Assembly: GCA_964016885.1 (NCBI GenBank)
Contig: OZ024747.1
Coordinates: forward strand, 34,968,001 to 35,032,000
Length of the DNA: 64,000 nucleotides
Direction of reading: 5' to 3'
From: Eledone cirrhosa
Taxonomy: Eukaryota
How positions within the stretch are numbered: position 1 is the stretch's first letter; every line of letters begins with the position of its first letter. The notes beneath the pieces were generated by a model that saw only the letters and a program-made list of their open reading frames with translations, was not told the origin of the DNA and ran no database searches. The position numbers and the translations under genes are program-made. This document shows positions 17,237 through 63,119 of this stretch, one piece after another.

Positions 17237-17239
<3 letters not shown>

Positions 17240-33900: not shown

Positions 33901-34350
33901 CCAGCGTGCATCTAAGATCCCGTTCCAGTCGCCCACTAACACTAAAGAGCGGGACGTTCCAAGAAAGGTCTCCAGACGCCGGAAGAAATCAGGCCGCCCT
34001 GCTCCTGTCGGGGCATAGACGGCCACTAGCCTGAAAGCTTGCCCGTCTCCGCTGGTCACGTCCAGCACCACCAGCTTACCCTCTGGGTCCAGGAAGATGG
34101 CCCGTATGGCGAGATCCAAACCTCTCCGAAAAAGTACAGCAACTCCTCCACCGGATCCAGGACGGCTGGGAGATGCGTACACATCGTAGCCGCCGAAGAT
34201 CGGTGCGAAGGCCCGTGCTTCGGAGATTCTGGTCTCGCTGATGGCCACTACATCTATGTTTAGTGACCTGAGGTCGTTGAGCAGGTGACCCTGCTTCCAT
34301 GACGACCCCAAGCCACGCGCATTTATGCTGCCTATTCTGAGTGAGGTCAT
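30931..34350 (-). CDS. LINE ORF2: APE endonuclease, reverse transcriptase and C-terminal zinc-binding region (1139 aa)
   Basis: SINARGL, ISET, VYAP, GDWN, SYLDR, TDH (APE); KSPGLDGL, NFRPITLLN, LDQSKAFDRVDH, SVRQGCPLS, AYADD (RT); CPRC...ETVLHALVQC. Confidence 0.95.
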   Translation of the reverse strand: MTSLRIGSINARGLGSSWKQGHLLNDLRSLNIDVVAISETRISEARAFAPIFGGYDVYASPSRPGSGGGVAVLFRRGLDLAIRAIFLDPEGKLVVLDVTSGDGQAFRLVAVYAPTGAGRPDFFRRLETFLGTSRSLVLVGDWNGILDARWDCVGLADRGGGCKSLTNLLRRFELSDRYRLDFPNVPMWTWTNRIGSSRSYLDRVFCREIDRSSIGCPQFKIVSYTDHKFVTCVLDLDRLHRRGPGYWKLNASLPARNAYRDRISELVKRALTGAIVNNKWWFALKRAIRIESIRFSKALAIEKNRAEGELVRKLDEALSKGIATDVLAAKLALDQFFNAKHEGCVVRARVRALRHEGTKAVQWARVAEARRGNKATIRSLVDHDGRMLLDPGQMCEAFQRHFAQLFGGSGGPGRGMDFSVYLDGLPRLSATEARCCEKPITAAEVREAMTGCTRGKSPGLDGLPYELYVQMPDLFGGLLADVYCNWQQNGRIPSSVSRGAVALLRKDPNKGDNIDNFRPITLLNTEFKILAKVLAKRLALVVGGLVGEAQTCAIPDRSIHDNLHLMRYIVERVAREPGTGGSLINLDQSKAFDRVDHRYLAAVLRAAGFGPVFRGWIAAMHSDICSVVRVNGHLSEPFNIMRSVRQGCPLSSLLYVLTLEPLLHKLETLRGVPRELGCGRSVSAYADDVTVVVSNAKHIEAIGTTLREYEAVTGAMINQEKSVGLQLGTWRGRSMPSNSVVGRWTDGPVKLLGVWFGPDLQTDKNWDEVTSRVASLTQKWAERKLSLKGRAEVANAYIASVICYRLTVVPCPKPRLTALERLLFRFLWKGRAPMVRRSICCQHPLRGGLGMPWLMMRRHALRLRHLHLFLDGDQVWSPFARRVFPQLVSLTELQSWVKRRPRGSAWRLECLQALTALDQSGNVIGGNSTSAFYRGLVEGKSDDVLGETLGVDENQLANLFGRTFGPGPMDNFQKSLAWQCYRGALPVRDKLYRHGGAVSRACPRCAQGDETVLHALVQCPKIADLWVYVEHLLSRLGRIQLSSESIVRIAPPSSFSREGQAVFICLVAMAKEIVWWTRLKGLKTSTYLFGDALIDFFKFHLKRKIRVEKEVLSSQHFVERWVREARMARVNGPTLSIYL

Positions 34351-34385
34351 GTTTAAAATAGAGTGGAAAAGATGGGAAAGACCAC

Positions 34386-36482: not shown

Positions 36483-36708
36483 GTTTTTTTGTTTAAAATG
36501 AAATTTTGGGTACAAAACCCCAATAACTGGTTATTTAACCCCGAAGGGCCAAATAACGGACAGAAAGACCCCTCTCACGAGGAGGAGGGTGTCTTTATCA
36601 ACAATTTGGTTCAAGTTTTAAACAATTTACAATTGTTTTAACGGTTAAAAATTACTATACCTTACAGAGCCGAGCCTCCGTCAACCATGGCATTCAATAA
36701 TAATAATG

Positions 36709-39700: not shown

Positions 39701-42620
39701 TACAGATCACACACTTGTGATCTGAATAGGGGACCGTTTCAAAACGTAGACAGCTTACACTATTTCTGTCTATTTTCCGAATGAATATCCTGTCTATATA
39801 CGATCTAGATGACCCTCTGCGTGTAGCCCAGGTTCACACTGGCGGATTAGGGAAATCTAGTCGGTACCTGTCATACAGTTGGAACTGGCTGATCAGGTTC
39901 TTGAGGCTTTTGCACCCCCCCCCCGCTCCTATCGGATACTCCCACACAGTCCCAGCGTGCTTCTAAGATGCCGTTCCAGTCCCCCGCTAACAGTAAAGGG
40001 CGAGACGTAACCAGAAAGGCTTCCAGGCGTCTAAAGTCATCCGGCCGTCCTTCCCCAGTAGGAGCATAGACGGCCACAAGTCTAAAGGCACCACCTTGTT
40101 ATTGTTCACGTCCAGGACCAGTAACTTCCCGTCCCGGTCCCGGAAGATCGACCTTACTTCGAGATCCAGACCTTTCTAAAACAGCACAGACATCCCGCCT
40201 CCCATTCCCGGCCGGCTATCAGATGCAAAGATCTGATAGTCGTCGATAATGGGGTCTAGTTCCGCGCGTGTCGGAAATCCTTGTCTCGCCGACGGCAGTT
40301 ACATCCATTTCTATAGAACTGAGGTCGTTGAGCAGGTGACCCTGATTCCAGGACGATCACAGGCCCGGAACATTTAAACATCCTACTCTTAATACGGCCA
40401 TGTTGGCAGGTTAAACAGAGAGAGAGGAAGGTTTACTTACCTTCCGGGCTCTTGTGAAGGTCGGGTTGTTCGACCTCCATAGTTGGTGGTGTTTCTTTTG
40501 GGAACCCCTTTAAAAGTCTTTAAGTGGGTTTTACATTCGCGGTTCCCACGTCTGAGGAAAGCTGTATCGTATTTCTTTGAATATATCGAGCGACATTCGT
40601 ACCAGAACCAAATCTTCTGGCACGCGAAATGTGCTCGATTTAAAAATGTCCCCCTTTTTTTGGATATTTTCACTTCGAGGCCATCAGTTCGTTGTTGGCC
40701 CTCCTGACGAGCACGAAGTTTTGTATGTTTTATTGGTGTGATGTTATTTGTTTGCGTGGCTTTGGTGGTGATGGTTTTGGTTGTGTTGTTTCGGTTGTGT
40801 CTGTGTTTTGTTGTGAGTGCGGTGTCTCTGGTTTCAGATGTGTGTGTGTATATTTGTTCTTGCGTCTGTTTAGGTTGTTTGCGTTTGGGGATTCTGGTGA
40901 TGGTGATGGTGGTGTTGATGTTGGTGTTATTGGAGAGATGTTTGCGTGGGTGGTGTCTGCGTTTTTCATTATTGTGGGTTATTTTGAGCTTTGTTGAGTT
41001 TTTATTTTATTTTTGTGTTTCCTTTTTTGTATTTTGAGGGATTTGGGTTTTCCCTCATCTTCACTACTGGTAGATGAGGGGTCTGTGTCTGTAGGTGTGT
41101 CTGTATATATGTTTATGGTTTTATTGGTGTGTGTATTTTGGGGGGACGGGGAATTTGACAGCTTTCCTCGTTTCCCCTCTGGGTGGTCAATGTTGGTGGT
41201 GGTCTTTCTATTGGTGTTGTTGTTGGTGGTTTTGCCGGTGCTGGTGTTGGTTGTGGTCCTCCCCCCAGCGTCGGCAGCAGTGGAGCCTTTCGACCCCTTG
41301 CCTCTTTCAGCAGTTGAGAGCAGAAGGCTCGCAAATGGGTTTTTTCCCCACAAATAAAACACTGCGGCCTATTGCCTTCTGTCATAATGTGAATGACCGT
41401 CCCATTCTGAAGACGGATGTGATCCTGGATTGTCTTCACATTCTCGGGCCTGATCTGGAGAAGGATCTCCAGGTCAACCCCGGACCAGTCCTCCCTGGCC
41501 GTTATTGTCACTTCTATAGGGACGGTATCCGTCCCCTCCACAATCACACATCCCAGAAGCCACCACATGTCAAGTCCTGGTAGGATTCTCGGAATACGGA
41601 GACGGGCCGTTCTTTTCCCCATGTGGGAGGGGTACATTATGGTCTTGCTCGTTTTGCAAGGAGTCATAGTGTGTTTCATAGCGAGGGCTTCTGACTTGAA
41701 CAACACCGAAATGGTGCCGTACTGTCTGCTCATCTCTATGTATTCGGTGTCTTCTCTGATACACCTCAGCGCGATTTCGACATCTTCTTGTGGTATTAAA
41801 GCTGCCCTTTTGGTTTGTGTTGAGATGCATCTATAATGCACCGTTCTGGGCTCCACTGCCTCAAAAGCTTCTACCGTGACAGTTAAGTTGGCTCAGGTTT
41901 GCTCTTGCTTGATGAGCTTCCATGCCTGGGCCAACTTTTCATCTTTGTTTGAGAGGTCCATATTGAAGCATGGCCCCTTTTTTTGCTGCTGCCGCAGCGA
42001 AAGTGTTCTTCTTGTTTTCGTTGGGGGTGTTGTTGTCGTTGTCGTTGTTCTTGTTGGTGTTGTTGTTATCACTGTCGCTGTTATCATTGTTGTCTTTGTT
42101 GCCACCGTTGTTCTCGGTGCAGTTGGTATTGTTGCTGTTGGTGTTGTCGCTATTTGTTTTCATGTTAGTCGTGTTGATATTGTTGTTGCATTTGTTATTT
42201 TTTTTTTTTGTTATCTGTATTTTCGTTGTCGCTGTTACTGTCATTTTTTCAAAACTAGAGTTCTCATTGGTATCATTGGTGTCTTTGTTTACATTTTTTG
42301 TGGTGGTGTTTGTGTTAACAATTTGTGTTGATTTTGCTGTCGCGCTCCTCTCAACTTCTACGTCGTTGTCGCACGACAGCAGACATATCGCTTGGGGGCG
42401 TGGTTCAGCCATGTTTTTTTTCTCCGTAAAATGTTAAACATGTAAAAACAAAAGTTCAAAATTTGGGCCAAAAGGCCCAAATATTATACTTCCCCCTTCA
42501 CAGGGCAAAGTCTATGGGCTTATATACCTTACACAACAAGAAATATTTAACAACAAATAATTTTAACAGGCAAATAAAGCGACTTACTGGGAGCGAGCCA
42601 AAAAGACGTCCGAACAGACC
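36709..42620 (-). mobile_element. Full-length but decayed L1/Tx1 LINE (copy 2, sister family)
   Basis: Frameshifted ORF2 (37004-40401; NFRPISLLN, PAYADD, CKRC..ETVLHAL) and a divergent ORF1 (40437-42412; CFICGEKTHLRAFC); (ATT)n at both ends. Confidence 0.92.
36795..36872 (+). repeat. 14-bp minisatellite (AACAATAACAAAGT)n in the 3' UTR of LINE copy 2
   Basis: About 5 tandem copies visible. Confidence 0.85.
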
Positions 42621-42635
42621 AATAATAATAATAAT

Positions 42636-42690
42636 AATAATTGTTTCTACTTTAGGCACAAGGCCAGCAATTACCCAGTGCATTGTGCAG
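42636..42690 (-). mobile_element. SINE family A 3' fragment
   Basis: Reverse complement of GCACTGGGTAATTGCTGGCCTTGTGCCTAAAGTAGAAACAATTATT. Confidence 0.8.
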
Positions 42691-42827
42691 TATTAACTAG
42701 CTTACCAATGCACACTGTGAATATTTGCCCTAGGTGTCAGGAAGACACTCGTCATATATCTCAGAAACAATAATGAAAGAAAATAAAAATAATAATAATA
42801 ATAATAATTATTATTATTATTATTATT

Positions 42828-42958
42828 CGAGGTTAACTTTGCCTTTCATCCTTATAGGGTCGAAAACATAAAGTACCTGTCACGCACTGGGGTCGATTTA
42901 ATCGAATTTCCCCACCCCCAAATTACTGGCTTTATGCCTATATAAGAAACCATTATTA
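42828..42958 (+). mobile_element. SINE family A 3' half
   Basis: CGAGGTTAACTTTGCCTTTCATCC...GAAACCATTATT. Confidence 0.85.
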
Positions 42959-42969
42959 TTAATATTGAA

Positions 42970-43165
42970 TGCGGTGGATTGACAGTATCGGTAGAGGGTC
43001 GGACGCCATGCTTTCCAGCATAGTTACGTCCCTTTATGATCTGAGTTCAAATCCCGCCGAGGTTGACTTTGCCTTTCATCCTCACGGGGTCGATAAAATA
43101 AAGTACCAGTAATTCACTGGGTAATTGCTGGCCTTGTGCCTAAAGTGGAAACAATTATTATTATT
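42970..43165 (+). mobile_element. tRNA-derived SINE, family A
   Basis: Full head, B-box and ATT tail, which directly precedes LINE copy 3. Confidence 0.9.
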
Positions 43166-43735
43166 GAATGCCATGTTTGACGGAGGCTCGGCTCTGTAAG
43201 GTATAGTAATTTTTAACCGTTATAGCAATTGTAAATTGTTTAAAACTTGAACCAAATTGTAGATAAAGACACCCTCCTCCTTATGTGATGGGTCTTTCTG
43301 CCCGTTATTTGGCCCTTCGGGGTTAAATAACCAGTTATTGGGGTTTTGTGCCCAATATTCATTTGAAACCGTAAAAAAACATGGCTACAAAAAAGAATGT
43401 TCACAAGTCATTTCCACTCCTTCCGTCCTCTTCTTTCCCAATCGTCATTACGTCAGAGAACAGATTGTCTCTCTAACCTCCCTTCTCTAAATGTGATTTC
43501 GCCTCTTTCGCAAGCGACGCCATTAAAGAAAAAGAAATATATAGTTTCTCGTAGCGTTCTTCATCAAGAGAACGCGCGTACTGTGGAACATTTCTCCACG
43601 ACAACGACAACGACGAAAGATGTGTGCGGTAAAAACGCAAAGCCATTTCATTCGTCTGACGTCATGAAGAATAGCAGCAGCAGCCGTAATAACAGCAGCA
43701 GCAGCACCAGCAAGAACAACAGCAGCAGCAGCTGC

Positions 43736-43767
<32 letters not shown>

Positions 43768-46700
43768 AGAAAAACCAATCTCGTTTGAAGGTATCGCAAA
43801 GAACCTGGAAACCATCCTTATAACAAATGATGAATTACAGGAAGCAAAAAAGATGGTGACGAAAACCGCACACCGAGCAACCTGCAAGGCAACCGAAGAA
43901 TTGTTCGAAACCCAACAGCACTATACGGTCACGCACCGTACAGTAAGCACAAAATCACGTAGGGTTGAAAGAGTCACAGAGGCTCAAATACAAAACGCCT
44001 TAGAGTCTGTGTGGCAGCGGAAAACGCATATCACGCGAGGCAAGAAATATGCCATCGTGGACGTGCTTTTTGTCACACCCCAAGAGGCAAATGCTCAATC
44101 CTTAGTGACCCTAAGGAGCGAGGAAATGGTGTTGGTGCCCTCCTACTGCGGGCAAAAAATTGTGAGGGTCAAACTGACCCAAGTCCCCCCCCCCTCCTCC
44201 GGGATGGCCCCTTCTTGGCTGACCGCGTCTGTCCTCGTCGGAATCGAGGAGAAAACAACCGTACTGCAAGTACAGAAAAAAGTACGAGAAGATTGGGTTG
44301 GCGCCTCCGTTGAGATGTTAATTCAAACCAACCAGGAGTGCATCGAAGCTATCCCGGATGTGATAGACTTCGATAACGGCACTCAACTTCCCATAAGTGT
44401 TGAGGGCAAACGCCCGAAATGCTTTCGCTGTGGGTCGAAGACTCACCTCAGGGCCTTCTGAAACCGGCTCCACTGCTACCAGCAACAGGACAGGCTGCAA
44501 GCAGGAAGGATGGGTCCGTTGCACCCATACCCACGCCACGGAAATCAAGAACAGCAGCTGCAGCGGAAGTATTAACAACAACAACTGTAACACCAACTGC
44601 AGCTGCAACCGAGACTCCACTGAAACCATCACCGACAAGAACAAGTGAAAGAGTGGAGCTGATACACCTCCCCGACCTCACAGAATCGGACATGGAGTGT
44701 GAGGTTGGAAAGGGATGGCAAAAGGTCGCAAGAAGGCACAAACGCAGAAGCAGCGCATCGTCGCCTTCGAAAAGGGAGGAACAAATGAAAAAAGGGTAAA
44801 CGCTACTGCAAAGAGTCTTACAGCAGCAACACCACCAACACCATCAACACCCACACTAGCACTATCATCACCACCGGCGGCAACCCCACCGCCAACAACA
44901 ACACCACCTTCAATAACACCACCACAAACACCAGCATCGCAAACACAACAACAAAACATACACATCCAGCAACAACGACAAGAACATAGCAGAACTACAC
45001 TCCACCCCAGAAAAAGAAATGCACAGCAATATATACACACAACAAGAAAGTAATTACTTACATAATTAAACACACAGACATTTCACAGCACGACTACATA
45101 ATACCAGCACCAATCAAAACACCAGCGAACATAAGACTGGTAAGAATATCACAGAAACAATACACAAACATTAAAATGAAATTCCCCAACGCAGTTGGTG
45201 ATTTCAGAGACCTAGGAGGGACACTATACCGGAGAGTATACTCGGATATACTCACAGAAGAGCCGACGACCAGCCGAAGGGACGATTCAACGGTCCCTTC
45301 ACCAGACGATCAAGGTAAGTGATCTTTCCCACTTGCCCCGTTCCTCACCAAACATGGCCGTATTCGGAAGTGTAAATGTGCGTGGCTTAAGTTCGGTTTG
45401 GAAGAAGGCTCACTTGCTTAACGACATCATGTCACTAAACATAGATGTGGTGGCCATCAGCGAGACGGGAATCTCCGAAACGCAAGGTTTCGCACCGATC
45501 TTCGACGGTTACGAGGTATCCGAGCCGTCCGGGAGTGGGGGCGGAGTAGCTGTGTTGTTTCGGAAAGGCTTGGGTCTCGTCATACGTACCATCTTCCTGG
45601 ACCCAGAAGGTAAGACGGTGGTGCTGGACGTACGCGGCACCGAAGGTAACGCTTTCAGGCTAGTAGCCGTCTATGCCCCGATTTCTTTAGACGTCTCGAG
45701 ACCTTTCTTTGAACGTCCCGCTCTTTAGTGTTAGTGGGCGACTAGAACGGTATCTCGGATGCACGCTGGGATTGTGTGGGGCTAGTGGATAGGGGATGAG
45801 GGTGCAAGAGCCTCACCAACCTGCTCAGACGTTTTGAACTGTCCCACAGGTATTGATTGGATCACTCGAATGTGCCAATGTGGACATGGATAAACCGCAT
45901 CGGGTCATCCAGATCGTATCTCGATAGGGTATTCAGCAGAGAATTAGATAAGGCTAGTATAAGTTGTCCACAATTTAAAATAGTCGACTACACAGACCAC
46001 AAATTTGTAATCTGTGATATCGACATAGACAGACTTCATAGACAAGGACCCGGTTACTGGAAGCTGAACGCGTCTTTCCCGGCGCGCAAAGGTTATAGAG
46101 ACCGTATTAGCGAATTAGTTAAGCGGGCGTTGACGGGAGCGGTCGTCAACAACAGGTGCTGTTTAGCCCTGAAAAGGGAAATTAAAGTAGAATCGATTAG
46201 GTTTAGCAAAGGATTAGTGATAGAGGAACATAAAGTAGAGGGAGAGCTAGTCAGAAAGCTAGAAGAGGCGTTTAGGACAGGCATCGCAACCAACGTACTT
46301 GCGGCGAGATTGGCACTCGACCAATTCTTCAATGCAAAACACGAAGGCTGCGTTGTCAGAGCTAGAGCACGTGCTCTGAAACACGAGGGGTCAAAAGCCG
46401 TCCAATGGGCCCGGGTGGCAGAGGCGCGACGTGGCAACAATTCAGTTTTTTCTGACCAAAACAAGCCAATAACAACCGATGAAATACGTGGAGCGATGGC
46501 TAACAGCACGAGGGGTAAATCGCCAGTCTTGGATGGTCTGCCCTACGGGACATATGCATTTATGCCAGACTTGTTCGGTGACCTCTTGGCAGACGTCTAC
46601 AGCAATTGGCAGCAAAACGGGGCATTCCCAGTTTTGTGAGCCGGGGAGCGGTGGCGCTGTTGAGAACCACGCGAACAAGGGGGTGTTATCGATAACTTCA

Positions 46701-48831
46701 GGGCCATAACTCTGCTAAACGCAGAGTCCAAGTGTTTGGCGAAGGTGTTAGCGACAAGGGTTTGGTAGGAGAGGCGCAAACATGAGAGATCCATACACGA
46801 CACCCTCCACCTCAAGCGACACATCATAGAGAGAGTGGTTAAGAAACCTGGCACGGGTGGTGCACTGATCAACTTGGATCAATCCAAAGCATTCGATAGG
46901 GTCGACCATCGGTACCTGGCAGCAGTCCTCGAGGCAGCCGGCTTCGGGACCGTTTTCAGGGGCTGGATCGCTGCGATATACAGCGACATCTATTCAGTTG
47001 TGAGGGTGAACGGTCACCTATCGCAGCCGTTCAGCATCACACGCTCTGTCCGCCAGGGTTGTCCTCTCTCGACCCTCTTGTACGTATTGGCTCTCGAGCC
47101 CTTACTGCACAAACTGGGGGTGATAAGGGGCGTCTCACGCGAACCAGGATGCGGGAAATCCGAGTCGGCTTGCCCCACCGACGTCACGATGGTGGTGTTG
47201 TGCACCAGACACGTCCAGATGCTCGGCACCGCCCTCAAGGAATACGAGCGGTGACAGGAGCAAAGATAAACCAGGAAAAGTCGCTGGGCTTGCAGCTCGT
47301 TACCTGGAAATACAAGTCCATGCCGTCCGACAGTGTCGTGGGCGTTGGACGGACGGACCGGTTAAATTTCTCGGGGTCTGGTTCGGACCGGACCTCCAGA
47401 TGGAGAAAAACTGGAGCGAGGTGACGAGCAAGGTGGCCTTCCTCACCCAGAAATGGGCCGAGAGGAAGCTGTCCTGAAAAGCCGGGCGGAGGTGGCGAAT
47501 CCGTACATCGCATCCGTCATCTGCTACCGCCTCATCCTCGTCCCTTGCCCCGGCCCAACACTCACCACAATGGAGCGCCTCCTCTTCCGCTTTTTGTGGA
47601 AGGGACGCGCTCCCATGGTCAGACGATCCATCTGCTGACAACACACGTTCTGTGGAGGCCTGGGCATGCCATGGCTGATGATGCGCAAACATGCGCTGAG
47701 GCTGCGACATCTCTGGTGCTTCATTGACGGTGAACAGGTGTGGTCGCCGTCCACCAGGCACGTTTTTCCACAGCTTGTCTCCTTGACGGAGCTGCAGTCC
47801 TGGGTCAGGAAAAGACCGAGGGATAGCGCTTGGAAACTGGAATGTCTCCAGGCGCTCACTGCCCTCTGCCAGCTGGGCACCAGTATCGGTGGAACATCTA
47901 CCTCGGCGTTCTATAGAGGACTAGTGGACAGGAAGAGCAACGACGTTCTCGAAGAGATCCTGGGCGTCGAAGAAGATCAGCTGTTTGCTCTCTTCCGGAG
48001 AACTTTCAGCTCAGCGCCTATGGATAAATTCCAAATGTCCCTGGTCTGGCAGTGCTACCGGCGAGCGTTGCCGGTTCGAGATAAGCTCTACAGGCACGGA
48101 GGTACTGTCAGCCGACCCTCTCCGAGATGCGCGCAGAGCGACGAAATCATCGTGCACGCACTCGCTCAGTGCCTGAGCATTGCTAACTTGTGGAGCTATG
48201 TCGAACAGTGGCTGTCGCGTGTAGGACTCATCCAGTTATCGACTGAGTCCATTGTGGTTATGGTCTCGCCGTCTTCCTTCGAGGAGGAAGGGCATGCAGT
48301 TTTAATCTGCCCGGTGGCCATGGCGAAAGAGATTGTGTGGTGGACAAGGTTGAAAGGGTTAAAGATAGACACTTTCCTCTTCGGCGAATCCCTAATTAAC
48401 TTTTTCAAGTTTCACCTGAAGAGGATAATCAGGGTGGTGAGGCAAGTGCTGCCTTCTAGCAAGTTTGTTGAAAGGTGGGTGAATGTAGCGAGAATGGTCC
48501 GAGTGAACGGGACCGCTCTGAATAATCGCTTGTAGTTTGAGAAATGGAAACATTGAGACAGGGCGCTTGCCCTGGTTGTCAGGGTGGCCGTGGTCTTTTC
48601 TGTGGTTTTCGCCACAAGTAACCCTCGGAGGTTTACCCCTATTTGGGAATTTTTCATTGTTTCAATTTTCATTTGTATTGTTTATATTTATATGTTTCTG
48701 TCTTTTTCATTTTCTTATATAAATAATAAAAATCTTTACACGCACAGAATCCACATCGTACCGTCCTGTACAATCCCGTGCCGCCTGTAATGTTTTTCTT
48801 CATGTCAACCCTTGTGGCCAATAAAGAAATC
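43166..48831 (+). mobile_element. Full-length decayed L1/Tx1 LINE (copy 3, same family as copy 1)
   Basis: 5' end GAATGCCATG.TTGACGGAGGCTCGGCTCTG matches copy 1; fragmented ORF1 (43381-45322) and ORF2 (45353-48535) with internal deletions; (ATT)n tail. Confidence 0.93.
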
Positions 48832-49737: not shown

Positions 49738-50029
49738 TTATTATTAATAGGGAATGATACACACCTGGTGGATAGTGTTAAGAAATCGCTCCCATAAGTT
49801 TTTTGATTTTTTACATTTTTAAAACAATTGTGATAGAATAATTTTTAGTACAAATGGATATAAGACACCAGTCTTAATTCTCAGGTAGTGACAACACATA
49901 ACACTATGGCATAGGGCTCCAATATTTAATTTTGTATCAGAAATGTTATAGTAAAAAAAGAAAATGTTTACAAATCGTCACAAATGGAAGAAAACAACAG
50001 CCCAATAATTTAGTGTACAGTGTTCGGCA

Positions 50030-50447
50030 ACCATCGATACCATTTTGTTCAACACTGACAAAGGAAGGGTGAACTAGTTTCTAGCTTATTAGATGTCATC
50101 AGCACCGTATACCTTCCTGTCAGTGAATTGAATGTTTGAAAGTATATGCTTTCCGTATGCATATTAACAACTGAGCAGCCTAACTTGCATATCGAGTGAG
50201 TTAGACGGCCGGGTGTACCGAAAACGATAAATGGAAAAAATGAAATTTCATTTCTCATTCTTAGTACGGCGGACAGGAAGGTATGCGGTACTGACGACAA
50301 CTAATAAGCTAGAAACTAGTTCATCGTTCCTTTGTCAGTGTTGAACAAAAGGGCAACCATGGTTGCCGAAGACTGTACGGCTACTAATTCGGGCTGTTTG
50401 TTTACAAACAAACCGAGCATTATAATAAATGTTCGGTAAACCCATAC

Positions 50448-50544
<97 letters not shown>

Positions 50545-51107
50545 TGTGTGTGCATGTATGTATGTATATACATACTAATGTACGTCTGTATACATATATG
50601 TATGTACGTATACATACTTATGTTTAAGTATCAGCCGTACTAAGTGTGAGAAATGAAATTTCATTTTTTCTATTTATCGTTTTCGGTACGCGCGGTCGAC
50701 TAACTCACTCGATATGCAAATTAGGCTGCTCATCCGTTAATATGCATAAATAAAGTATATACTTTCAAACGTTCAATCAACTGACAGGAAGGTATACGGT
50801 GCTAATGAGAGCTAATATGCTAGCAACTAGTTCATCGTTCCTTTGTCAGTGTTAAACAAAATGGCGACGATGGTTGCCGAACACTGTACGGCTAATAATT
50901 TGGGCTGTTTGTCTACAAACGAACCGAGCATTATAATAAATGTTCGGTAAATCCATACGTACATATATATATATGTGTGAATGTATGTAATGTATGTATA
51001 TACTACTGTACGTCTGTATACAAATATGTATGTACGTATACATACTTATATTTAAGTATCAGCCGTAATAAGAGTGAGAAATGAAATTACATTCATTTTT
51101 TCCATTT
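50030..51107. repeat. Older diverged copy of the hammerhead repeat family (inverted fragment plus ~1.6 tandem units)
   Basis: 50043-50270 has the same orientation as the 54.6-62.2 kb units; 50271-51107 is reverse-oriented. Hammerhead cores at ~50068-50106 (-), 50286-50326 (+) and a mutated one at ~50797-50837 (+). Confidence 0.88.
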
Positions 51108-52911: not shown

Positions 52912-52999
52912 AACGTTTGTATACGTATAATAAGGCCAAAACAATGCAGGTATGGACATAGAATAAAGAATGCAAATGCAAAAGATATTGTTGACAATT

Positions 53000-53407
53000 A
53001 GTCTTTTACCTTAGATTTATTTAAATGTCCTAAGTTTTCCAGATAATATCTCTTCTTCAGAGGGAATAAAGTTGTCAAACCAGTGTTCTAAATAGCTTGC
53101 CGAGTCATGCTAACAGGAAATGGTATAGAGTATCTCTTTTATCTCTAATTTCAAAGAGTTAAGATTAGGTGGATAAAGAGTAGTCTCCCTTTAAGAGGGG
53201 TTTGTTTTTGTTGTTTTTTTTATTTATTTTTTGTACATGCCTGTTTAAATGTGTGGGAGAATGCATGAAGGTGTAGGTATGTGAGTGTGTGTGTGTGTGT
53301 GTGAGTGTGAGAAGATATGTCTATACGTAAATGTGGGGGATAGATGTTATCTCGTGTTAGAACAGGTCTAGTGTGTGTATGTGTGAGAGAGGATAAGTGG
53401 AGGTGTA

Positions 53408-53466
<59 letters not shown>

Positions 53467-54567
53467 CAGTGTGTGTAGGGGGGGGGTGTAAATATGGGGC
53501 TAGGAGCTATGTCAAGTTATAAATTGGGTGTTGAGTTCTAGTCTATTATTAATTGGTGGTTGTGTTTTGTCTATAATTAGTGCTTCATTAATTCTAAGAT
53601 TGCCGAGGTTTCTTTCCTTAGTTTCTATCCTAACTGTTATGGTTTTGTCGGTGTTTTTGCATTTAACTAGGTGTTTCTTAAATAGGGAAGCGTTAGTATT
53701 GTGGTGTTCTTTTATTCTTATGTGGAGTGGTCTGGTGGTGCTATCTACGTAGAAGTTGTTGCATTTTTCACACTCTAGTCTGTATACGACGTAAGCCTGG
53801 TGGCATAGGTCTGTGTCGTTGATGGGGCAGTTGGCTAGTCTGCAGTAGTTGTCATGTCTGGTTGAGTGTCTTTTGGTTAGCTGACTGCGTAGAGAAGGAC
53901 CTGAGTGGGCCAGTTGGATATCTAGTCCCTCTCGTCTGATAGCTCTGCGGATGGCTGTTGTTGTTTCTTCACTGAAGTGTGGGAGCTTCAGGAAGCAAGT
54001 GTTAGTGCCTCGGGTGTGGTGTCCTCTGTTCTTTCTGGCACGGTTTGTGGTGGATGTCGTGTATCCGTTCAGTTTGAGTACTTCCAGGAAATGTGTGGTG
54101 TGTGTGTCTCGGTTTCTAGCGTCGGTGCATTTGTTCCGGATACGTGCCAGTTCGTTCCTTATGTATCCGAACTTGGCACCGAGTGGGAGGGCCGATCTGA
54201 AATGTACGAACAGGTCCCTGCTGGCGGCTTTTTATAGAAGCAGGTGTGGATGTTACCTTCCTCTGTTACCCTGAGTTGGAAGTCCAGTAGGGATAGGGAT
54301 CCGCGGTAATCGGGGTGTTCCATGCTGAACTTTATACTGGCGTCCATCCTGGAGAATGTTGTATATATTTTATCTGCCTCCTCACGGGATGATGTAAGGA
54401 TGAGTATGTCATCTACATATCGGGTGAAGAAGCTATGGGAATGGCAGGTGTTGAGGGCTCGGCATTCTAGCTGGTTCATGTAGGTGATGACCAGCAGGCC
54501 CGTTAGGCTGAATCCCATGGGAAATCCTGTTGTCTGTCTGTATGTGTGGTGGTGGAAGGTGAAGTAC
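53000..54567 (-). mobile_element. Penelope/Poseidon-like element, 5'-truncated (RT C-terminal half, GIY-YIG, 3' UTR)
   Basis: YRQTTGFPMG, FTRYVDDILIL, SIKFSME, LSLLDF, FYKKP; endonuclease CPINDTDLC..YVVYRLECEKCNNFYV.STTRPLHIRIKEH; hammerhead-like motif near its 3' end. Confidence 0.88.
53028..53065 (-). ncRNA. Probable minimal hammerhead in the PLE 3' pseudo-LTR
   Basis: Minus strand CCT-CTGAAGA-AG AGAT att ATCT G-GAAA-ACTT-AGG; stems I and III are weak. Confidence 0.5.
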
Positions 54568-54595
54568 CTCTCTCTCTCTCTCTCTATATATATAT

Positions 54596-54881
54596 ACACA
54601 GGAACGATGTACTAGTTTCAAGCTTGTTAGCTATCATCAGCACCGTTTACCCATCTGCCAGATAGTTGAACGTTCGAAAGTATATACTTTCCTTATGACA
54701 ATTAACGGCTGAGCAGCCAAATTTGCATATTGAGTGAGTTAAATCGGTCAGGCATACCGAAAACGATAAGTTGAAAAAAATGAAAACGAAATTTCATTTC
54801 TCACTCTTAGTATGGCACTTACTTAAATGTAAGTATGTATATATACGTACATACATATATGTATACAGACGTACAGTAGCA

Positions 54882-54947
<66 letters not shown>

Positions 54948-55399
54948 TATACACACATGCATACAGGTACACATACATATATGCACGCATCAGTTTAGCC
55001 GGCGTTTATTATAACGCCGGCCGCTTTGTTCGTTTGTTTGTCAACAAAGCGAACAGCCTGAATTTATGCCATACGGTGTTAAGGCAACCACGTCACCTTT
55101 TTGTTCAACACTGACACAGGAACGATGTACTAGTTTCAAGCTTGTTAGCTATCATCAGCACCGTTTACCCATCTGCCAGATAGTTGAACGTTCGAAAGTA
55201 TATACTTTCCTTATGAAAATTAACGGCTGAGCAGCCAAATTTGCATATTGAGTGAGTTAAATCGGTCAGGCATACCGAAAACGATAAGTTGAAAAAAATG
55301 AAAACGAAATTTCATTTCTCACTCTTAGTATGGCACTTACTTAAATGTAAGTATGTATGTATACGTACATACATATATGTATACAGACGTACAGTAGCA

Positions 55400-55463
<64 letters not shown>

Positions 55464-55915
55464 TATACACACATGCATACAGGTACACATACATATATGC
55501 ACGCATCAGTTTAGCCGGCGTTTATTATAACGCCGGCCGCTTTGTTCGTTTGTTTGTCAACAAAGCGAACAGCCTGAATTTATGCCATACGGTGTTAAGG
55601 CAACCACGTCACCTTTTTGTTCAACACTGACACAGGAACGATGTACTAGTTTCAAGCTTGTTAGCTATCATCAGCACCGTTTACCCATCTGCCAGATAGT
55701 TGAACGTTCGAAAGTATATACTTTCCTTATGAAAATTAACGGCTGAGCAGCCAAATTTGCATATTGAGTGAGTTAAATCGGTCAGGCATACCGAAAACGA
55801 TAAGTTGAAAAAAATGAAAACGAAATTTCATTTCTCACTCTTAGTATGGCACTTACTTAAATGTAAGTATGTATGTATACGTACATACATATATGTATAC
55901 AGACGTACAGTAGCA

Positions 55916-55987
<72 letters not shown>

Positions 55988-56439
55988 TATACACACATGC
56001 ATACAGGTACACATACATATATGCACGCATCAGTTTAGCCGGCGTTTATTATAACGCCGGCCGCTTTGTTCGTTTGTTTGTCAACAAAGCGAACAGCCTG
56101 AATTTATGCCATACGGTGTTAAGGCAACCACGTCACCTTTTTGTTCAACACTGACACAGGAACGATGTACTAGTTTCAAGCTTGTTAGCTATCATCAGCA
56201 CCGTTTACCCATCTGCCAGATAGTTGAACGTTCGAAAGTATATACTTTCCTTATGAAAATTAACGGCTGAGCAGCCAAATTTGCATATTGAGTGAGTTAA
56301 ATCGGTCAGGCATACCGAAAACGATAAGTTGAAAAAAATGAAAACGAAATTTCATTTCTCACTCTTAGTATGGCACTTACTTAAATGTAAGTATGTACGT
56401 ATACGTACATACATATATGTATACAGACGTACAGTAGCA

Positions 56440-56501
<62 letters not shown>

Positions 56502-56953
56502 TATACACACATGCATACAGGTACACATACATATATGCACGCATCAGTTTAGCCGGCGTTTATTATAACGCCGGCCGCTTTGTTCGTTTGTTTGTCAACA
56601 AAGCGAACAGCCTGAATTTATGCCATACGGTGTTAAGGCAACCACGTCACCTTTTTGTTCAACACTGACACAGGAACGATGTACTAGTTTCAAGCTTGTT
56701 AGCTATCATCAGCACCGTTTACCCATCTGCCAGATAGTTGAACGTTCGAAAGTATATACTTTCCTTATGAAAATTAACGGCTGAGCAGCCAAATTTGCAT
56801 ATTGAGTGAGTTAAATCGGTCAGGCATACCGAAAACGATAAGTTGAAAAAAATGAAAACGAAATTTCATTTCTCACTCTTAGTATGGCACTTACTTAAAT
56901 GTAAGTATGTATGTATACGTACATACATATATGTATACAGACGTACAGTAGCA

Positions 56954-57013
<60 letters not shown>

Positions 57014-57466
57014 TATACACACATGCATACAGGTACACATACATATATGCACGCATCAGTTTAGCCGGCGTTTATTATAACGCCGGCCGCTTTGTTCGTT
57101 TGTTTGTCAACAAAGCGAACAGCCTGAATTTATGCCATACGGTGTTAAGGCAACCACGTCACCTTTTTGTTCAACACTGACACAGGAACGATGTACTAGT
57201 TTCAAGCTTGTTAGCTATCATCAGCACCGTTTACCCATCTGCCAGATAGTTGAACGTTCGAAAGTATATACTTTCCTTATGAAAATTAACGGCTGAGCAG
57301 CCAAATTTGCATATTGAGTGAGTTAAATCGGTCAGGCATACCGAAAACGATAAGTTGAAAAAAAATGAAAACGAAATTTCATTTCTCACTCTTAGTATGG
57401 CACTTACTTAAATGTAAGTATGTATGTATACGTACATACATATATGTATACAGACGTACAGTAGCA

Positions 57467-57538
<72 letters not shown>

Positions 57539-57990
57539 TATACACACATGCATACAGGTACACATACATATATGCACGCATCAGTTTAGCCGGCGTTTAT
57601 TATAACGCCGGCCGCTTTGTTCGTTTGTTTGTCAACAAAGCGAACAGCCTGAATTTATGCCATACGGTGTTAAGGCAACCACGTCACCTTTTTGTTCAAC
57701 ACTGACACAGGAACGATGTACTAGTTTCAAGCTTGTTAGCTATCATCAGCACCGTTTACCCATCTGCCAGATAGTTGAACGTTCGAAAGTATATACTTTC
57801 CTTATGAAAATTAACGGCTGAGCAGCCAAATTTGCATATTGAGTGAGTTAAATCGGTCAGGCATACCGAAAACGATAAGTTGAAAAAAATGAAAACGAAA
57901 TTTCATTTCTCACTCTTAGTATGGCACTTACTTAAATGTAAGTATGTATGTATACGTACATACATATATGTATACAGACGTACAGTAGCA

Positions 57991-58056
<66 letters not shown>

Positions 58057-58508
58057 TATACACACATGCATACAGGTACACATACATATATGCACGCATC
58101 AGTTTAGCCGGCGTTTATTATAACGCCGGCCGCTTTGTTCGTTTGTTTGTCAACAAAGCGAACAGCCTGAATTTATGCCATACGGTGTTAAGGCAACCAC
58201 GTCACCTTTTTGTTCAACACTGACACAGGAACGATGTACTAGTTTCAAGCTTGTTAGCTATCATCAGCACCGTTTACCCATCTGCCAGATAGTTGAACGT
58301 TCGAAAGTATATACTTTCCTTATGAAAATTAACGGCTGAGCAGCCAAATTTGCATATTGAGTGAGTTAAATCGGTCAGGCATACCGAAAACGATAAGTTG
58401 AAAAAAATGAAAACGAAATTTCATTTCTCACTCTTAGTATGGCACTTACTTAAATGTAAGTATATATGTATACGTACATACATATATGTATACAGACGTA
58501 CAGTAGCA

Positions 58509-58578
<70 letters not shown>

Positions 58579-59030
58579 TATACACACATGCATACAGGTA
58601 CACATACATATATGCACGCATCAGTTTAGCCGGCGTTTATTATAACGCCGGCCGCTTTGTTCGTTTGTTTGTCAACAAAGCGAACAGCCTGAATTTATGC
58701 CATACGGTGTTAAGGCAACCACGTCACCTTTTTGTTCAACACTGACACAGGAACGATGTACTAGTTTCAAGCTTGTTAGCTATCATCAGCACCGTTTACC
58801 CATCTGCCAGATAGTTGAACGTTCGAAAGTATATACTTTCCTTATGAAAATTAACGGCTGAGCAGCCAAATTTGCATATTGAGTGAGTTAAATCGGTCAG
58901 GCATACCGAAAACGATAAGTTGAAAAAAATGAAAACGAAATTTCATTTCTCACTCTTAGTATGGCACTTACTTAAATGTAAGTATGTATGTATACGTACA
59001 TACATATATGTATACAGACGTACAGTAGCA

Positions 59031-59102
<72 letters not shown>

Positions 59103-59554
59103 TATACACACATGCATACAGGTACACATACATATATGCACGCATCAGTTTAGCCGGCGTTTATTATAACGCCGGCCGCTTTGTTCGTTTGTTTGTCAAC
59201 AAAGCGAACAGCCTGAATTTATGCCATACGGTGTTAAGGCAACCACGTCACCTTTTTGTTCAACACTGACACAGGAACGATGTACTAGTTTCAAGCTTGT
59301 TAGCTATCATCAGCACCGTTTACCCATCTGCCAGATAGTTGAACGTTCGAAAGTATATACTTTCCTTATGAAAATTAACGGCTGAGCAGCCAAATTTGCA
59401 TATTGAGTGAGTTAAATCGGTCAGGCATACCGAAAACGATAAGTTGAAAAAAATGAAAACGAAATTTCATTTCTCACTCTTAGTATGGCACTTACTTAAA
59501 TGTAAGTATGTATGTATACGTACATACATATATGTATACAGACGTACAGTAGCA

Positions 59555-59616
<62 letters not shown>

Positions 59617-60068
59617 TATACACACATGCATACAGGTACACATACATATATGCACGCATCAGTTTAGCCGGCGTTTATTATAACGCCGGCCGCTTTGTTC
59701 GTTTGTTTGTCAACAAAGCGAACAGCCTGAATTTATGCCATACGGTGTTAAGGCAACCACGTCACCTTTTTGTTCAACACTGACACAGGAACGATGTACT
59801 AGTTTCAAGCTTGTTAGCTATCATCAGCACCGTTTACCCATCTGCCAGATAGTTGAACGTTCGAAAGTATATACTTTCCTTATGAAAATTAACGGCTGAG
59901 CAGCCAAATTTGCATATTGAGTGAGTTAAATCGGTCAGGCATACCGAAAACGATAAGTTGAAAAAAATGAAAACGAAATTTCATTTCTCACTCTTAGTAT
60001 GGCACTTACTTAAATGTAAGTATGTATGTATACGTACATACATATATGTATACAGACGTACAGTAGCA

Positions 60069-60128
<60 letters not shown>

Positions 60129-60581
60129 TATACACACATGCATACAGGTACACATACATATATGCACGCATCAGTTTAGCCGGCGTTTATTATAACGCCG
60201 GCCGCTTTGTTCGTTTGTTTGTCAACAAAGCGAACAGCCTGAATTTATGCCATACGGTGTTAAGGCAACCACGTCACCTTTTTGTTCAACACTGACACAG
60301 GAACGATGTACTAGTTTCAAGCTTGTTAGCTATCATCAGCACCGTTTACCCATCTGCCAGATAGTTGAACGTTCGAAAGTATATACTTTCCTTATGAAAA
60401 TTAACGGCTGAGCAGCCAAATTTGCATATTGAGTGAGTTAAATCGGTCAGGCATACCGAAAACGATAAGTTGAAAAAAAATGAAAACGAAATTTCATTTC
60501 TCACTCTTAGTATGGCACTTACTTAAATGTAAGTATGTATGTATACGTACATACATATATGTATACAGACGTACAGTAGCA

Positions 60582-60653
<72 letters not shown>

Positions 60654-61105
60654 TATACACACATGCATACAGGTACACATACATATATGCACGCATCAGT
60701 TTAGCCGGCGTTTATTATAACGCCGGCCGCTTTGTTCGTTTGTTTGTCAACAAAGCGAACAGCCTGAATTTATGCCATACGGTGTTAAGGCAACCACGTC
60801 ACCTTTTTGTTCAACACTGACACAGGAACGATGTACTAGTTTCAAGCTTGTTAGCTATCATCAGCACCGTTTACCCATCTGCCAGATAGTTGAACGTTCG
60901 AAAGTATATACTTTCCTTATGAAAATTAACGGCTGAGCAGCCAAATTTGCATATTGAGTGAGTTAAATCGGTCAGGCATACCGAAAACGATAAGTTGAAA
61001 AAAATGAAAACGAAATTTCATTTCTCACTCTTAGTATGGCACTTACTTAAATGTAAGTATGTATGTATACGTACATACACATATGTATACAGACGTACAG
61101 TAGCA

Positions 61106-61161
<56 letters not shown>

Positions 61162-61613
61162 TATACACACATGCATACAGGTACACATACATATATGCAC
61201 GCATCAGTTTAGCCGGCGTTTATTATAACGCCGGCCGCTTTGTTCGTTTGTTTGTCAACAAAGCGAACAGCCTGAATTTATGCCATACGGTGTTAAGGCA
61301 ACCACGTCACCTTTTTGTTCAACACTGACACAGGAACGATGTACTAGTTTCAAGCTTGTTAGCTATCATCAGCACCGTTTACCCATCTGCCAGATAGTTG
61401 AACGTTCGAAAGTATATACTTTCCTTATGAAAATTAACGGCTGAGCAGCCAAATTTGCATATTGAGTGAGTTAAATCGGTCAGGCATACCGAAAACGATA
61501 AGTTGAAAAAAATGAAAACGAAATTTCATTTCTCACTCTTAGTATGGCACTTACTTAAATGTAAGTATATATGTATACGTACATACATATATGTATACAG
61601 ACGTACAGTAGCA

Positions 61614-61683
<70 letters not shown>

Positions 61684-62155
61684 TATACACACATGCATAC
61701 AGGTACACATACATATATGCACGCATCAGTTTAGCCGGCGTTTATTATAACGCCGGCCGCTTTGTTCGTTTGTTTGTCAACAAAGCGAACAGCCTGAATT
61801 TATGCCATACGGTGTTAAGGCAACCACGTCACCTTTTTGTTCAACACTGACACAGGAACGATGTACTAGTTTCAAGCTTGTTAGCTATCATCAGCACCGT
61901 TTACCCATCTGCCAGATAGTTGAACGTTCGAAAGTATATACTTTCCTTATGAAAATTAACGGCTGAGCAGCCAAATTTGCATATTGAGTGAGTTAAATCG
62001 GTCAGGCATACCGAAAACGATAAGTTGAAAAAAATGAAAACGAAATTTCATTTCTCACTCTTAGTATGGCACTTACTTAAATGTAAGTATGTATGTATAC
62101 GTACATACATATATGTATACAGACGTACAGTAGCATGCATATATATATATATATA
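54596..62155 (-). repeat. Tandem array of ~520-bp hammerhead-containing units (14 full plus 1 partial)
   Basis: Near-identical units with periods 518, 516, 524, 514, 512, 525, 518, 522, 524, 514, 512, 525, 508 and 522 bp; length differences lie almost wholly in an internal (TA)n. Confidence 0.97.
54603..54647 (-). ncRNA. Minimal type I hammerhead ribozyme (first of 15 identical minus-strand copies in the array)
   Basis: AACGGTG-CTGATGA-T AGCT aaca AGCT T-GAAA-CTAG-TA^-CATCGTT: 7-bp stem I with one G-U, complete core, GUA cleavage triplet, palindromic stem III ACTAGT. Confidence 0.9.
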
Positions 62156-62386
62156 TGGCAGATGGGTAAACGGTGCTGATGATAGCTAACAAGCTTGAAA
62201 CTAGTACATCGTTCCTGTGTCAGTGTTGAACAAAAAGGTGACGTGGTTGCCTTAACACCGTATGGCATAAATTCAGGCTGTTCGCTTTGTTGACAAACAA
62301 ACGAACAAAGCGGCCGGCGTTATAATAAACGCCGGCTAAACTGATGCGTGCATATATGTATGTGTACCTGTATGCATGTGTGTATA

Positions 62387-62454
<68 letters not shown>

Positions 62455-62502
62455 TGCTACTGTACGTCTGTATACATATATGTATGTACGTATACATACA
62501 TA

Positions 62503-62506
<4 letters not shown>
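62156..62506 (+). repeat. Inverted partial unit of the array
   Basis: Reverse complement of array sequence from TGGCAGATGGG to ATACATACTTA. Confidence 0.95.
62169..62213 (+). ncRNA. Minimal type I hammerhead ribozyme (inverted copy)
   Basis: aacggtg ctgatga tagctaacaagctt gaaa ctagta catcgtt, read directly on the plus strand. Confidence 0.9.
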
Positions 62507-62596
<90 letters not shown>

Positions 62597-62682
62597 GGTT
62601 ATATTTAATTTGTTGGGATACAACAAGCTAAAATATTTTCATAACTATATATAAAGCACTCAACAAATTATTGGAGTAAATA

Positions 62683-63046
62683 TACAATATATTAAAAAAA
62701 TGGAAACTATATTTATAAAACCATATTTATTTCATTATAGATATTTCAATGGCCACCAATGTAGATTATGGTGCGCTTTCATCAGATAAAATATAATACA
62801 GATTAGTTTTATAAATAAATATTGATATATCCTGAAAAAATGCAACCTTACCGGTTGGAGCTTCCTGGATGCTCCAACCGGTAAGGTTGCATTTTTTCAG
62901 GATATATCAATATTTATTTATAAAACTAATTTGTATTATATTTTATCTGATGAAAGCGCACCATAATCTACATTGGTGGCCATTGAAATATCTATAATGA
63001 AATAAATATGGTTTTAAGAATATAGTTTCCATTTGTTAATATATTG

Positions 63047-63048
<2 letters not shown>
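62683..63048. repeat. ~365-bp near-perfect palindrome with a hammerhead-like motif in each arm
   Basis: Arms are centred on ~62866; CTGATGA (62947) and GAAA (62985) flank a CACCA/TGGTG stem. Confidence 0.9.

Positions 63049-63119
<71 letters not shown>

What the first reader, a model, noticed from the sequence alone, without database searches (positions are those of the whole stretch)
54596..62506. Satellite-like array in which every ~520-bp unit encodes an intact hammerhead ribozyme (candidate retrozyme / circular RNA system)
Seen: 15 minus-strand copies and one plus-strand copy of AACGGUG-CUGAUGA-U AGCU aaca AGCU U-GAAA-CUAG-UA^CAUCGUU, with complete catalytic core, 7-bp stem I, stem II and a GUA site, one per unit of a highly homogeneous non-coding tandem. 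Established: minimal type I hammerheads with a palindromic stem III occur in PLE pseudo-LTRs and in ribozyme satellites (newt satellite 2, schistosome Sm-alpha, cave-cricket pDo500, non-LTR retrozymes); they typically cleave as dimers and yield monomer linear or circular RNAs. Inference: a minus-strand transcript would self-cleave into ~520-nt monomers, and adjacent ACUAGU palindromes would allow double-hammerhead folding. Monomers could circularise and be re-inserted as multimers by rolling-circle reverse transcription with a PLE RT. I cannot tell whether this family has been described.
Basis: partly seen in the sequence, partly recalled or inferred. Interest (0 to 1): 0.9.

Follow-up and report, generated by a model that had tools for sequence, protein, structure and literature searches.

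The report
Ribozyme repeat bearing Penelope insertion footprint
This tandem array is one of more than 18,000 copies of a non-coding repeat carrying a hammerhead-ribozyme sequence, whose insertions have two back-to-back arms ending at two fixed sites, the same pattern left by the genome's Penelope-like retrotransposons, so it is likely a self-cleaving RNA parasite (a known kind, a retrozyme) that borrows their enzymes.

Summary
Observation confirmed: 15 minus-strand and 1 plus-strand intact type I hammerheads, one per 508-525-bp unit. The unit is a dispersed family with at least 11,919 + 6,505 copies in two subfamilies, a new member of the described animal non-LTR retrozymes. Autonomous Penelope-like families here show the same rule, matching two-site initiation shown in vitro for one Penelope-like enzyme. 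Both arms share a template; the ribozyme escapes inherited change. One chimera joins it to a Hydra-type element. The window's 15-mer includes a 6-unit DNA-level duplication, and the neighbouring Penelope-like fragment is a separate insertion. Cleavage, circles and expression are untested. The scan noted similar insertion patterns before for tRNA-bearing repeats in other genomes.

The parts
54597..62138 (-). Long arm: 14 complete units plus a partial one, 15 hammerheads; RNA-sense 3' end is atypical (unit position 13-14 after the cut site instead of E2)
54604..54646 (-). Hammerhead copy 1 (stem I 6 bp, CUGAUGA, U.U, stem II AGCU/AGCU, GAAA, CUAG palindrome, GUA); predicted cut 54610/54609. Same motif at 55122, 55638, 56162, 56676, 57188, 57713, 58231, 58753, 59277, 59791, 60303, 60828, 61336, 61858
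55128..55643 (-). One unit from cut site to cut site (516 nt): predicted monomer RNA, highly self-paired
55285..55347 (-). The ~60-nt tail between family end sites E1 (unit position ~297) and E2 (~359); present in every unit; inferred RT start sites
55354..55509 (-). (AT)n run with imperfect inverted flanks; predicted long rod hairpin just upstream of E1
55632..61851 (.). Two 6-unit blocks (55632-58746, 58747-61851) sharing 5 of 6 AT-run lengths and two point variants: a 3.1-kb duplication
62139..62151 (.). Head-to-head junction of the two arms (short AT run)
62152..62506 (+). Short inverted arm, unit position 462 through the hammerhead (62170-62212, predicted cut 62206/62207) to end site E1
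62507..62591 (.). (TA)n target on the right
54568..54596 (.). (CT)n(AT)n microsatellite on the left, between the array and the PLE fragment
52912..54567 (-). Neighbour, not part of the element: 5'-truncated, frameshifted Penelope-like copy (family A; RT C-terminal half + GIY-YIG, ORF pieces 53512-54563) with its own unrelated pLTR

Best explanation
The array is an insertion of a non-coding, hammerhead-bearing repeat family (a non-LTR retrozyme) that was likely copied into a (TA)n microsatellite by a Penelope-like reverse transcriptase/endonuclease acting in trans, likely from a ribozyme-cut, circularised unit RNA, and was then likely lengthened by a six-unit DNA duplication. Mechanism: minus-strand multimeric transcripts would self-cleave after GUA, best as double hammerheads through the ACUAGU palindrome (inferred from newt/axolotl-type architecture), and be ligated to ~420-520-nt circles (inferred). 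The PLE protein, probably a dimer, would nick both strands of (TA)n and prime one cDNA at E1 and the other at E2 on the same RNA (inferred from the shown E1/E2 rule and shared arm variants); each cDNA runs through the cut site for part of a turn to several turns, and the two growing ends join head to head (structure shown). When one side fails, a single arm ending at E1 or E2 is left (shown). Long arrays grow further by unequal exchange (block structure shown, process inferred).
For: Copy number 11,919 and 6,505 exact motif matches, controls 0. No PLE ORF beside the 20 closest dispersed loci. 63 divergent arm pairs against 2 convergent abutments in 117 loci; 46 of 46 pairs with both ends typed are E1+E2 (23 of 32 pairs in 56 motif-picked loci, 8 of 12 in the 21 closest loci, 15 of 19 in 40 subfamily-2 loci; the other 17 have one atypical end). 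Ends run into (TA)n. PLE families A, B, D show the same one-arm-E1/one-arm-E2 rule with own tails. PMC11167929: a purified PLE protein cuts and extends both strands and starts at two internal RNA sites that delimit the tail. Arms of one insertion are closer than the median other locus in 30 of 30 testable pairs; in 6 of 31 pairs neither arm contains the other, excluding fold-back copying there. 20 of 101 arms cross the cut site twice or more; young 2-3-unit arrays are identical or 1 change apart (L103, L119, L106, L121, L148). Inherited variants hit 0 of 16 hammerhead 5'-half sites against 91 of 294 other sites (P 0.004), while private mutations hit both; stem I swaps G.U/U.G/A-U between subfamilies. 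L120 fuses a Hydra-type PLE arm (its E1) to retrozyme sequence, opposite arm ending at retrozyme E2.
Against: No cleavage, circle or transcript was observed. No 5' truncation pile-up at the cut site (0 against 3.5 expected, in a sample biased against seeing it), so nothing shows cut RNA was the template; PMC11167929 found hammerhead cleavage unnecessary for insertion in vitro, and the 2026 preprint saw cleavage for only 1 of 9 dimers. G10.1-C11.1 is replaced by U.U. No PLE with a homologous pLTR or a 60-nt tail was found among families A-D; the driver rests on one chimera. Arms are as close as the nearest other locus in only 13 of 30 pairs, and within-insertion distance is below nearest-other in only 8 of 13 short arrays. 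Other stretches of the unit are nearly as conserved as the ribozyme. This window's own long arm lacks the expected E2 end.
Confidence: 0.65

Rival explanations
1. Same PLE-driven two-site insertion, but the template is an uncut linear multimer read from existing arrays; the hammerhead cuts rarely or only with protein help and circles are not the intermediate.
For: Arms run through the cut site without truncation there; weak stem III and U.U pair; PMC11167929 reports unprocessed RNA as dominant substrate; some short arrays are heterogeneous.
Against: Purifying selection on the ribozyme at template level; many single-unit donors could not give multi-unit arms; identical units in young arrays while most long arrays are heterogeneous; circles shown for coral, mussel and axolotl retrozymes (PMC7229834).
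Confidence: 0.22
2. The unit is the pLTR of an autonomous PLE family not sampled here; arrays and inverted pairs are that element's truncated ends, amplified in tandem.
For: Same insertion signature as PLE ends; 24 of 57 Xenopus retrozyme families match annotated repeats, 21 of the 22 being PLEs (2026 preprint); the genome holds many PLE families and searches scored only the best candidates.
Against: Upstream of the hammerhead the unit closes on itself; none of 117 sampled loci has an ORF joined upstream in pLTR fashion; copies spaced 2.7-3.4 kb proved to be arrays or segmental duplications.
Confidence: 0.08
3. A satellite spread and homogenised only at DNA level, with a fossil hammerhead.
For: Long arrays show irregular block duplications of 2-10 units.
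Against: Fixed 3' ends with variable 5' ends, (TA)n targets, obligate E1/E2 arms and selection on RNA structure are retrotransposition signatures.
Confidence: 0.03

Closest known systems
Animal non-LTR retrozymes (Cervera & de la Pena 2020, PMC7229834; Li, Clavereau & Pollet 2026, bioRxiv 10.64898/2026.07.22.740005)
   Same: Non-coding tandem units, one type I hammerhead each, GC under 50%, thousands of monomer to multimer copies, self-paired predicted circle, coexistence with PLEs; 424-525 bp lies within the 51-972 bp range of the preprint.
   Different: Larger than the 170-400 nt cases tested in 2020; no discernible TSD; the text I read reports no inverted arms, tail or microsatellite target (for the preprint; the 2020 supplement could not be read); no pLTR homologue found here, whereas the preprint's link is pLTR homology.
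Axolotl/newt satellite hammerheads (HHR_Amex1, HHR_Amex2 in PMC7229834)
   Same: Single-pair helix III with palindromic tetraloop (as Amex1) and U.U mismatch at the base of helix II (as Amex2); both cleave better as dimers.
   Different: Combines both weak features in one motif; activity untested; invertebrate host.
EN+ Penelope-like elements, esp. Hydra clade (PMC8557442) and Poseidon PAc (PMC11167929)
   Same: Inverted 5'-truncated arm, tail at one end only, (TA)n targets, hammerhead.
   Different: No ORF; tail ~60 nt rather than 30-40; whole unit repeats in tandem; strict one-E1/one-E2 pairing is counted here, while the in vitro study saw no strand difference in start site and did not report pairing per event in the section read.
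PLE minimal hammerheads (PMC4209133)
   Same: Type I, palindromic helix III, predicted dimer action.
   Different: Those have helix II 7-8 bp, helix I 4-5 bp and conserved G10.1-C11.1; this motif has canonical helix sizes and U.U.

Membership tests
non-LTR retrozyme | tandem repeat with a complete type I hammerhead in at least two consecutive units | tested here: met
   15 consecutive units
non-LTR retrozyme | non-coding, no LTR/PBS/PPT organisation | tested here: met
   only microsatellite-derived open frames; unit repeats head to tail with no internal region; PBS/PPT not searched separately
non-LTR retrozyme | dispersed multicopy family (monomers to multimers) | tested here: met
non-LTR retrozyme | ribozyme maintained by selection | tested here: met
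   modest power, related sequences
non-LTR retrozyme | self-cleavage of monomer or dimer transcripts | not testable with these tools
   needs in vitro transcription
non-LTR retrozyme | expressed as linear and circular monomer RNA | not testable with these tools
   no run on record as RNA was listed
non-LTR retrozyme | homology to a PLE pLTR (2026 preprint, about 4 in 10 families) | tested here: inconclusive
   none among families A-D and 30 GIY-YIG loci; sampling incomplete
PLE-mobilised insertion | inverted 5'-truncated copy at the 5' end | tested here: met
   63 divergent vs 2 convergent
PLE-mobilised insertion | tail at one end only (two start sites) | tested here: met
   46 of 46 typed pairs; ~60 nt
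PLE-mobilised insertion | (TA)n / AT-rich target | tested here: met
autonomous PLE | RT + GIY-YIG ORF between pLTRs | tested here: not met
PLE minimal hammerhead | long helix II, short helix I, G10.1-C11.1 | tested here: not met
   against PMC4209133
Rfam hammerhead families | gathering score | tested here: not met

The most novel reading that the evidence does not exclude
These insertions are a direct genomic record of the unsolved Penelope integration step: a dimeric RT grips one ribozyme-made RNA circle at two fixed sites and primes both target strands, one from each site, so every two-armed insertion is E1+E2. The retrozyme needs no pLTR homology, has its own 60-nt two-site signal, and rides on a Hydra-clade element, as the L120 chimera indicates. 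That would give a small circular RNA substrate for reconstituting PLE integration and the first event-level proof that PLE enzymes move retrozymes.
Probability: 0.45. Interest if true: 0.72.

Novelty: new member of a known kind. Interest (0 to 1): 0.5.

Why it matters
Retrozymes were proposed to be moved by Penelope-like elements on the basis of shared ribozymes, co-occurrence and pLTR homology; how PLEs make their inverted, tailed insertions is named as an open problem in PMC8557442. This family supplies countable footprints: an obligate pairing of two start sites per insertion, a shared template for both arms, selection on the ribozyme and one chimeric event. It turns three open questions (which enzyme, circle or linear template, what the hammerhead is for) into specific assays with predicted nucleotide positions. 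The element class itself is known, which caps the score.

Tried and rejected
1) Neighbouring PLE fragment as parent or co-inserted partner: its pLTR and hammerhead-like motif are unrelated, microsatellite separates it from the array, it is about 95% like young copies and frameshifted while the array is nearly uniform, and its end plus the array's short arm would be E1+E1; family A was beside 0 of 56 loci. 2) PLE family B as partner by proximity: young copies in 4 of 56 loci, no background measured, B is abundant; not claimed. 3) Six-unit period as a fixed multimer circle: blocks are 5 and 10, 2-4, 6 and 5 units in other arrays and change within arrays; rejected. 4) 5' truncation at the cut site as a sign of in vivo cleavage: 1 start at position 2, 0; sample biased against it; no support. 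5) Apparent truncation hotspot at the 5' edge of the core: 9 against 3.5 expected, corrected P 0.11; dropped. 6) Copies spaced 2.7-3.4 kb as tandem PLEs: arrays and segmental duplications. 7) Expression: no RNA holder listed; four runs of unknown kind were laid as contigs and cannot show strand, level or ends; not used. A read-based variant spectrum was not obtained. 8) Unconstrained co-folding of two hammerheads gave a long intermolecular duplex, not specifically the double hammerhead; uninformative. 9) A DNA search for the family-D end returned nothing (common words are skipped). 10) One search's cruder chaining called L135 E1/E1 because a long AT run split the arm; joins across it and gives E1/E2. 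11) Rfam miRNA-like hits are AU-repeat artefacts. 12) Literature searches that found no description of this family or of inverted/tailed retrozymes; subscription papers, Repbase and Dfam were not searchable.
Full report
Observation. The motif is present as described: 15 exact minus-strand copies and one plus-strand copy. The 14 complete units are 508-525 bp and differ almost only in an internal (AT)n run; with it collapsed, 7 of 14 are identical and 7 differ at 1-2 places. Anatomy read from the sequence: stem I 6 bp with a longer outer stem beyond an internal loop, CUGAUGA, a U.U pair at 10.1/11.1, stem II AGCU/AGCU, GAAA, one A-U pair closing the palindrome CUAG, triplet GUA. By PMC4209133 (read: parts 1-2 of 4) this is the canonical metazoan type I layout that needs a second copy to fold well, not the PLE minimal form. 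Rfam gives nothing at gathering score and only HH9 at 18.5 bits. The unit RNA folds at -196 kcal/mol, z -12.6; folded as a circle, stem II pairs have probabilities 0.91-1.0 and the three proximal stem I pairs 0.77-0.80.

Family. The window is G000:C7:34968001-35032000 in a 3.0-Gb genome; the best named homologue of a resident PLE protein is from Octopus bimaculoides, 61% identical over half the query, so the host is likely a cephalopod (inference). A 22-mer spanning the cut site has 11,919 exact matches; a second subfamily (~424 bp, ~75% identical) has 6,505; both reversed controls 0. These are lower bounds. None of the 20 closest dispersed loci has a match to the neighbouring PLE proteins.

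Insertion architecture. I took three samples: the window plus 20 closest loci, the 56 loci covering the first 100 listed motif matches on contig 1, and 40 loci from the first subfamily-2 matches. Arms under 55 bp or under 84% (86%) identity were dropped; one of the 40 gave no arm. There are 63 head-to-head (divergent) arm pairs and 2 convergent abutments. RNA-sense 3' ends fall at two sites, E1 (unit position ~297) and E2 (~359), each running into (TA)n; 5' ends are scattered. In 46 pairs both ends are E1 or E2, and all 46 are one of each (23 of 32, 8 of 12, 15 of 19 pairs); no E1/E1 or E2/E2; the other 17 pairs have one atypical end, this window among them. Single arms end at E1 and E2 about equally (13 and 17 of 36; 8 and 10 of 23). 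Independent choice would give half homotypic pairs.

Comparison with resident PLEs. The genome has young PLE families with intact ORFs: A (900-905 aa, the family of the neighbour), B (713 aa), C (777 aa), and D. B has the DKT and CxCx5C motifs and D the CxCx5C motif that PMC8557442 (read: passages, sections 11 and 15) gives for the Hydra clade. Read by eye where both outer ends were printed, A (6 of 6), B (6 of 6; L142 and L063 set aside as nested or unclear) and D (7 of 7) also pair one E1 with one E2. Tails counted from the printed sequence: A 44, B 89, C ~35, D ~93 nt, retrozyme ~60. None of their pLTRs resembles the unit. PMC11167929 (read: passages and section 3 part 2) showed that a purified PLE protein, predicted to be a dimer, nicks and extends both strands at AT-rich DNA and starts at two internal RNA sites whose interval is the genomic tail; it also found hammerhead cleavage dispensable and protein-assisted in vitro. 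PMC3846280 (read: passages) describes the optional tail on one inverted pLTR, trans-mobilisation by pLTRs, and proposes self-priming for the inversions.

One template, two primings. In 30 of the 44 pairs with 100 or more shared sites, the two arms are closer to each other than to the median other locus in 30 of 30, and at least as close as the nearest other locus in 13 of 30; later conversion between arms could add to this. In 6 of 31 E1/E2 pairs neither arm is contained in the other, which fold-back copying cannot give. 80 of 101 arms cross the cut site and 20 cross it twice or more (selected sample), so the template was circular or uncut. Young 2-3-unit arrays have 0-1 substitutions between units (L103, L119, L106, L121, L148), others 5-17; within-insertion distance is below nearest-other in 8 of 13, tied in 1, above in 4. 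This fits a monomer circle but does not exclude a homogeneous linear multimer.

Long arrays. In the window, units 3-8 and 9-14 share 5 of 6 AT-run lengths and two point variants but differ at others: a real 3.1-kb duplication on a ~9-unit precursor. Other arrays have blocks of 5 and 10, 2-4, 6 and 5 units, the pattern of unequal exchange rather than a fixed RNA multimer.

Selection on the ribozyme. In 57 of 83 loci with two or more copies, variants shared by the copies of one insertion (inherited from the template) hit 0 of 16 sites of the hammerhead 5' half, which was not part of the subfamily-1 selection motif, against 91 of 294 other sites (Fisher P 0.004); alleles against private changes 0/34 versus 109/609 (P 0.01). 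Inherited change within the motif is at N7, loop II and position 10.1/11.1. On 16 hand-picked distinct variants, 96.3% of cells pair (slid controls 33-50%), and one stem I pair appears as U.G, G.U and A-U; the sequences are related, so this is essentially one compensatory event. Positions 404-443 and 8-47 are almost as conserved.

Driver. In L120 a 5'-truncated family-D copy ending at its own E1 is fused at the RT motif, with no microsatellite, to retrozyme position 265, and the opposite arm is retrozyme ending at E2; no retrozyme remainder follows D's end. This reads as one insertion with a template switch, obeying the rule across families, but it is 1 case in 56 loci and a deletion could mimic it. 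The window's neighbour (family A) is a separate, older insertion sharing the target type.

Known versus new. PMC7229834 (read: parts 2-4 of 6; supplement unreadable, and it may bear on host range and insertion structure) defines non-LTR retrozymes, shows circles in coral, mussel and axolotl, and names PLEs as likely drivers. The 2026 preprint (read: parts 1-3 of 5; supplements closed) adds co-occurrence and pLTR homology, units of 51-972 bp, and cleavage in 1 of 9 dimers. Searches found no description of this family or of inverted, tailed retrozymes in the open library. The scan's own notes (unchecked) record PLE-type insertion for tRNA-bearing tandem units in two other genomes; none matched this sequence.

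Verdict. Real, a new member of a known class, with unusually clean evidence on how such elements and PLEs integrate. Shown: motif, family, targets, arm rule, shared template, block duplication, constraint on the ribozyme. Inferred: cleavage, dimer fold, circles, PLE enzyme, dimer priming. Interest 0.5.

Noticed in passing
window 62592-63054: A second, unrelated hammerhead-bearing repeat directly right of the array, also as two divergent arms in (TA)n with ends ~77 nt apart; 2,470 first-look candidates genome-wide; many loci show the same two-end pairing. L237 has two long ends but its flanks are inverted too. PLE end or another retrozyme: not settled.
   Followed up: partly
window 50016-51104: Older, ~80% identical, degenerate copies of the same retrozyme family in both orientations.
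   Followed up: partly
L120 (G000:C1:36250600-36257100) with L238: Direct fusion of a Hydra-type PLE RT region to retrozyme sequence inside one two-armed insertion.
   Followed up: yes
L077-L096, L120, L134: At least four young PLE families, three with intact ORFs, each with its own tail length (about 35-93 nt) and hammerhead-like motif, several with non-canonical cores; all target (TA)n and nest in each other's junctions.
   Followed up: partly
L234-L236 (G000:C28:36053000-36085000): Subfamily-2 array filling all three fetched stretches (about 50 units seen), ending at E2.
   Followed up: partly
window 8126-10022 and 11542-12003: Further PLE fragments (family B type and a Neptune-like endonuclease region).
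   Followed up: partly
window 30931-34518 (minus) and 34386-36530 (minus); decayed relatives 37004-48535: An intact 1,195-aa endonuclease + RT frame with an upstream 714-aa frame: a young two-ORF LINE; further LINE remnants at 13228-14303, 17098-18419 and 25170-29044.
   Followed up: no
window 16076-16146 (minus): Weak tRNA match (31.1 bits), probably a tRNA-derived SINE or pseudogene.
   Followed up: no
runs X5 and X6: Two runs labelled as other organisms hold 71-75% of the sampled words; laid as a few low-depth contigs. Related species or mixed samples: not resolved.
   Followed up: no
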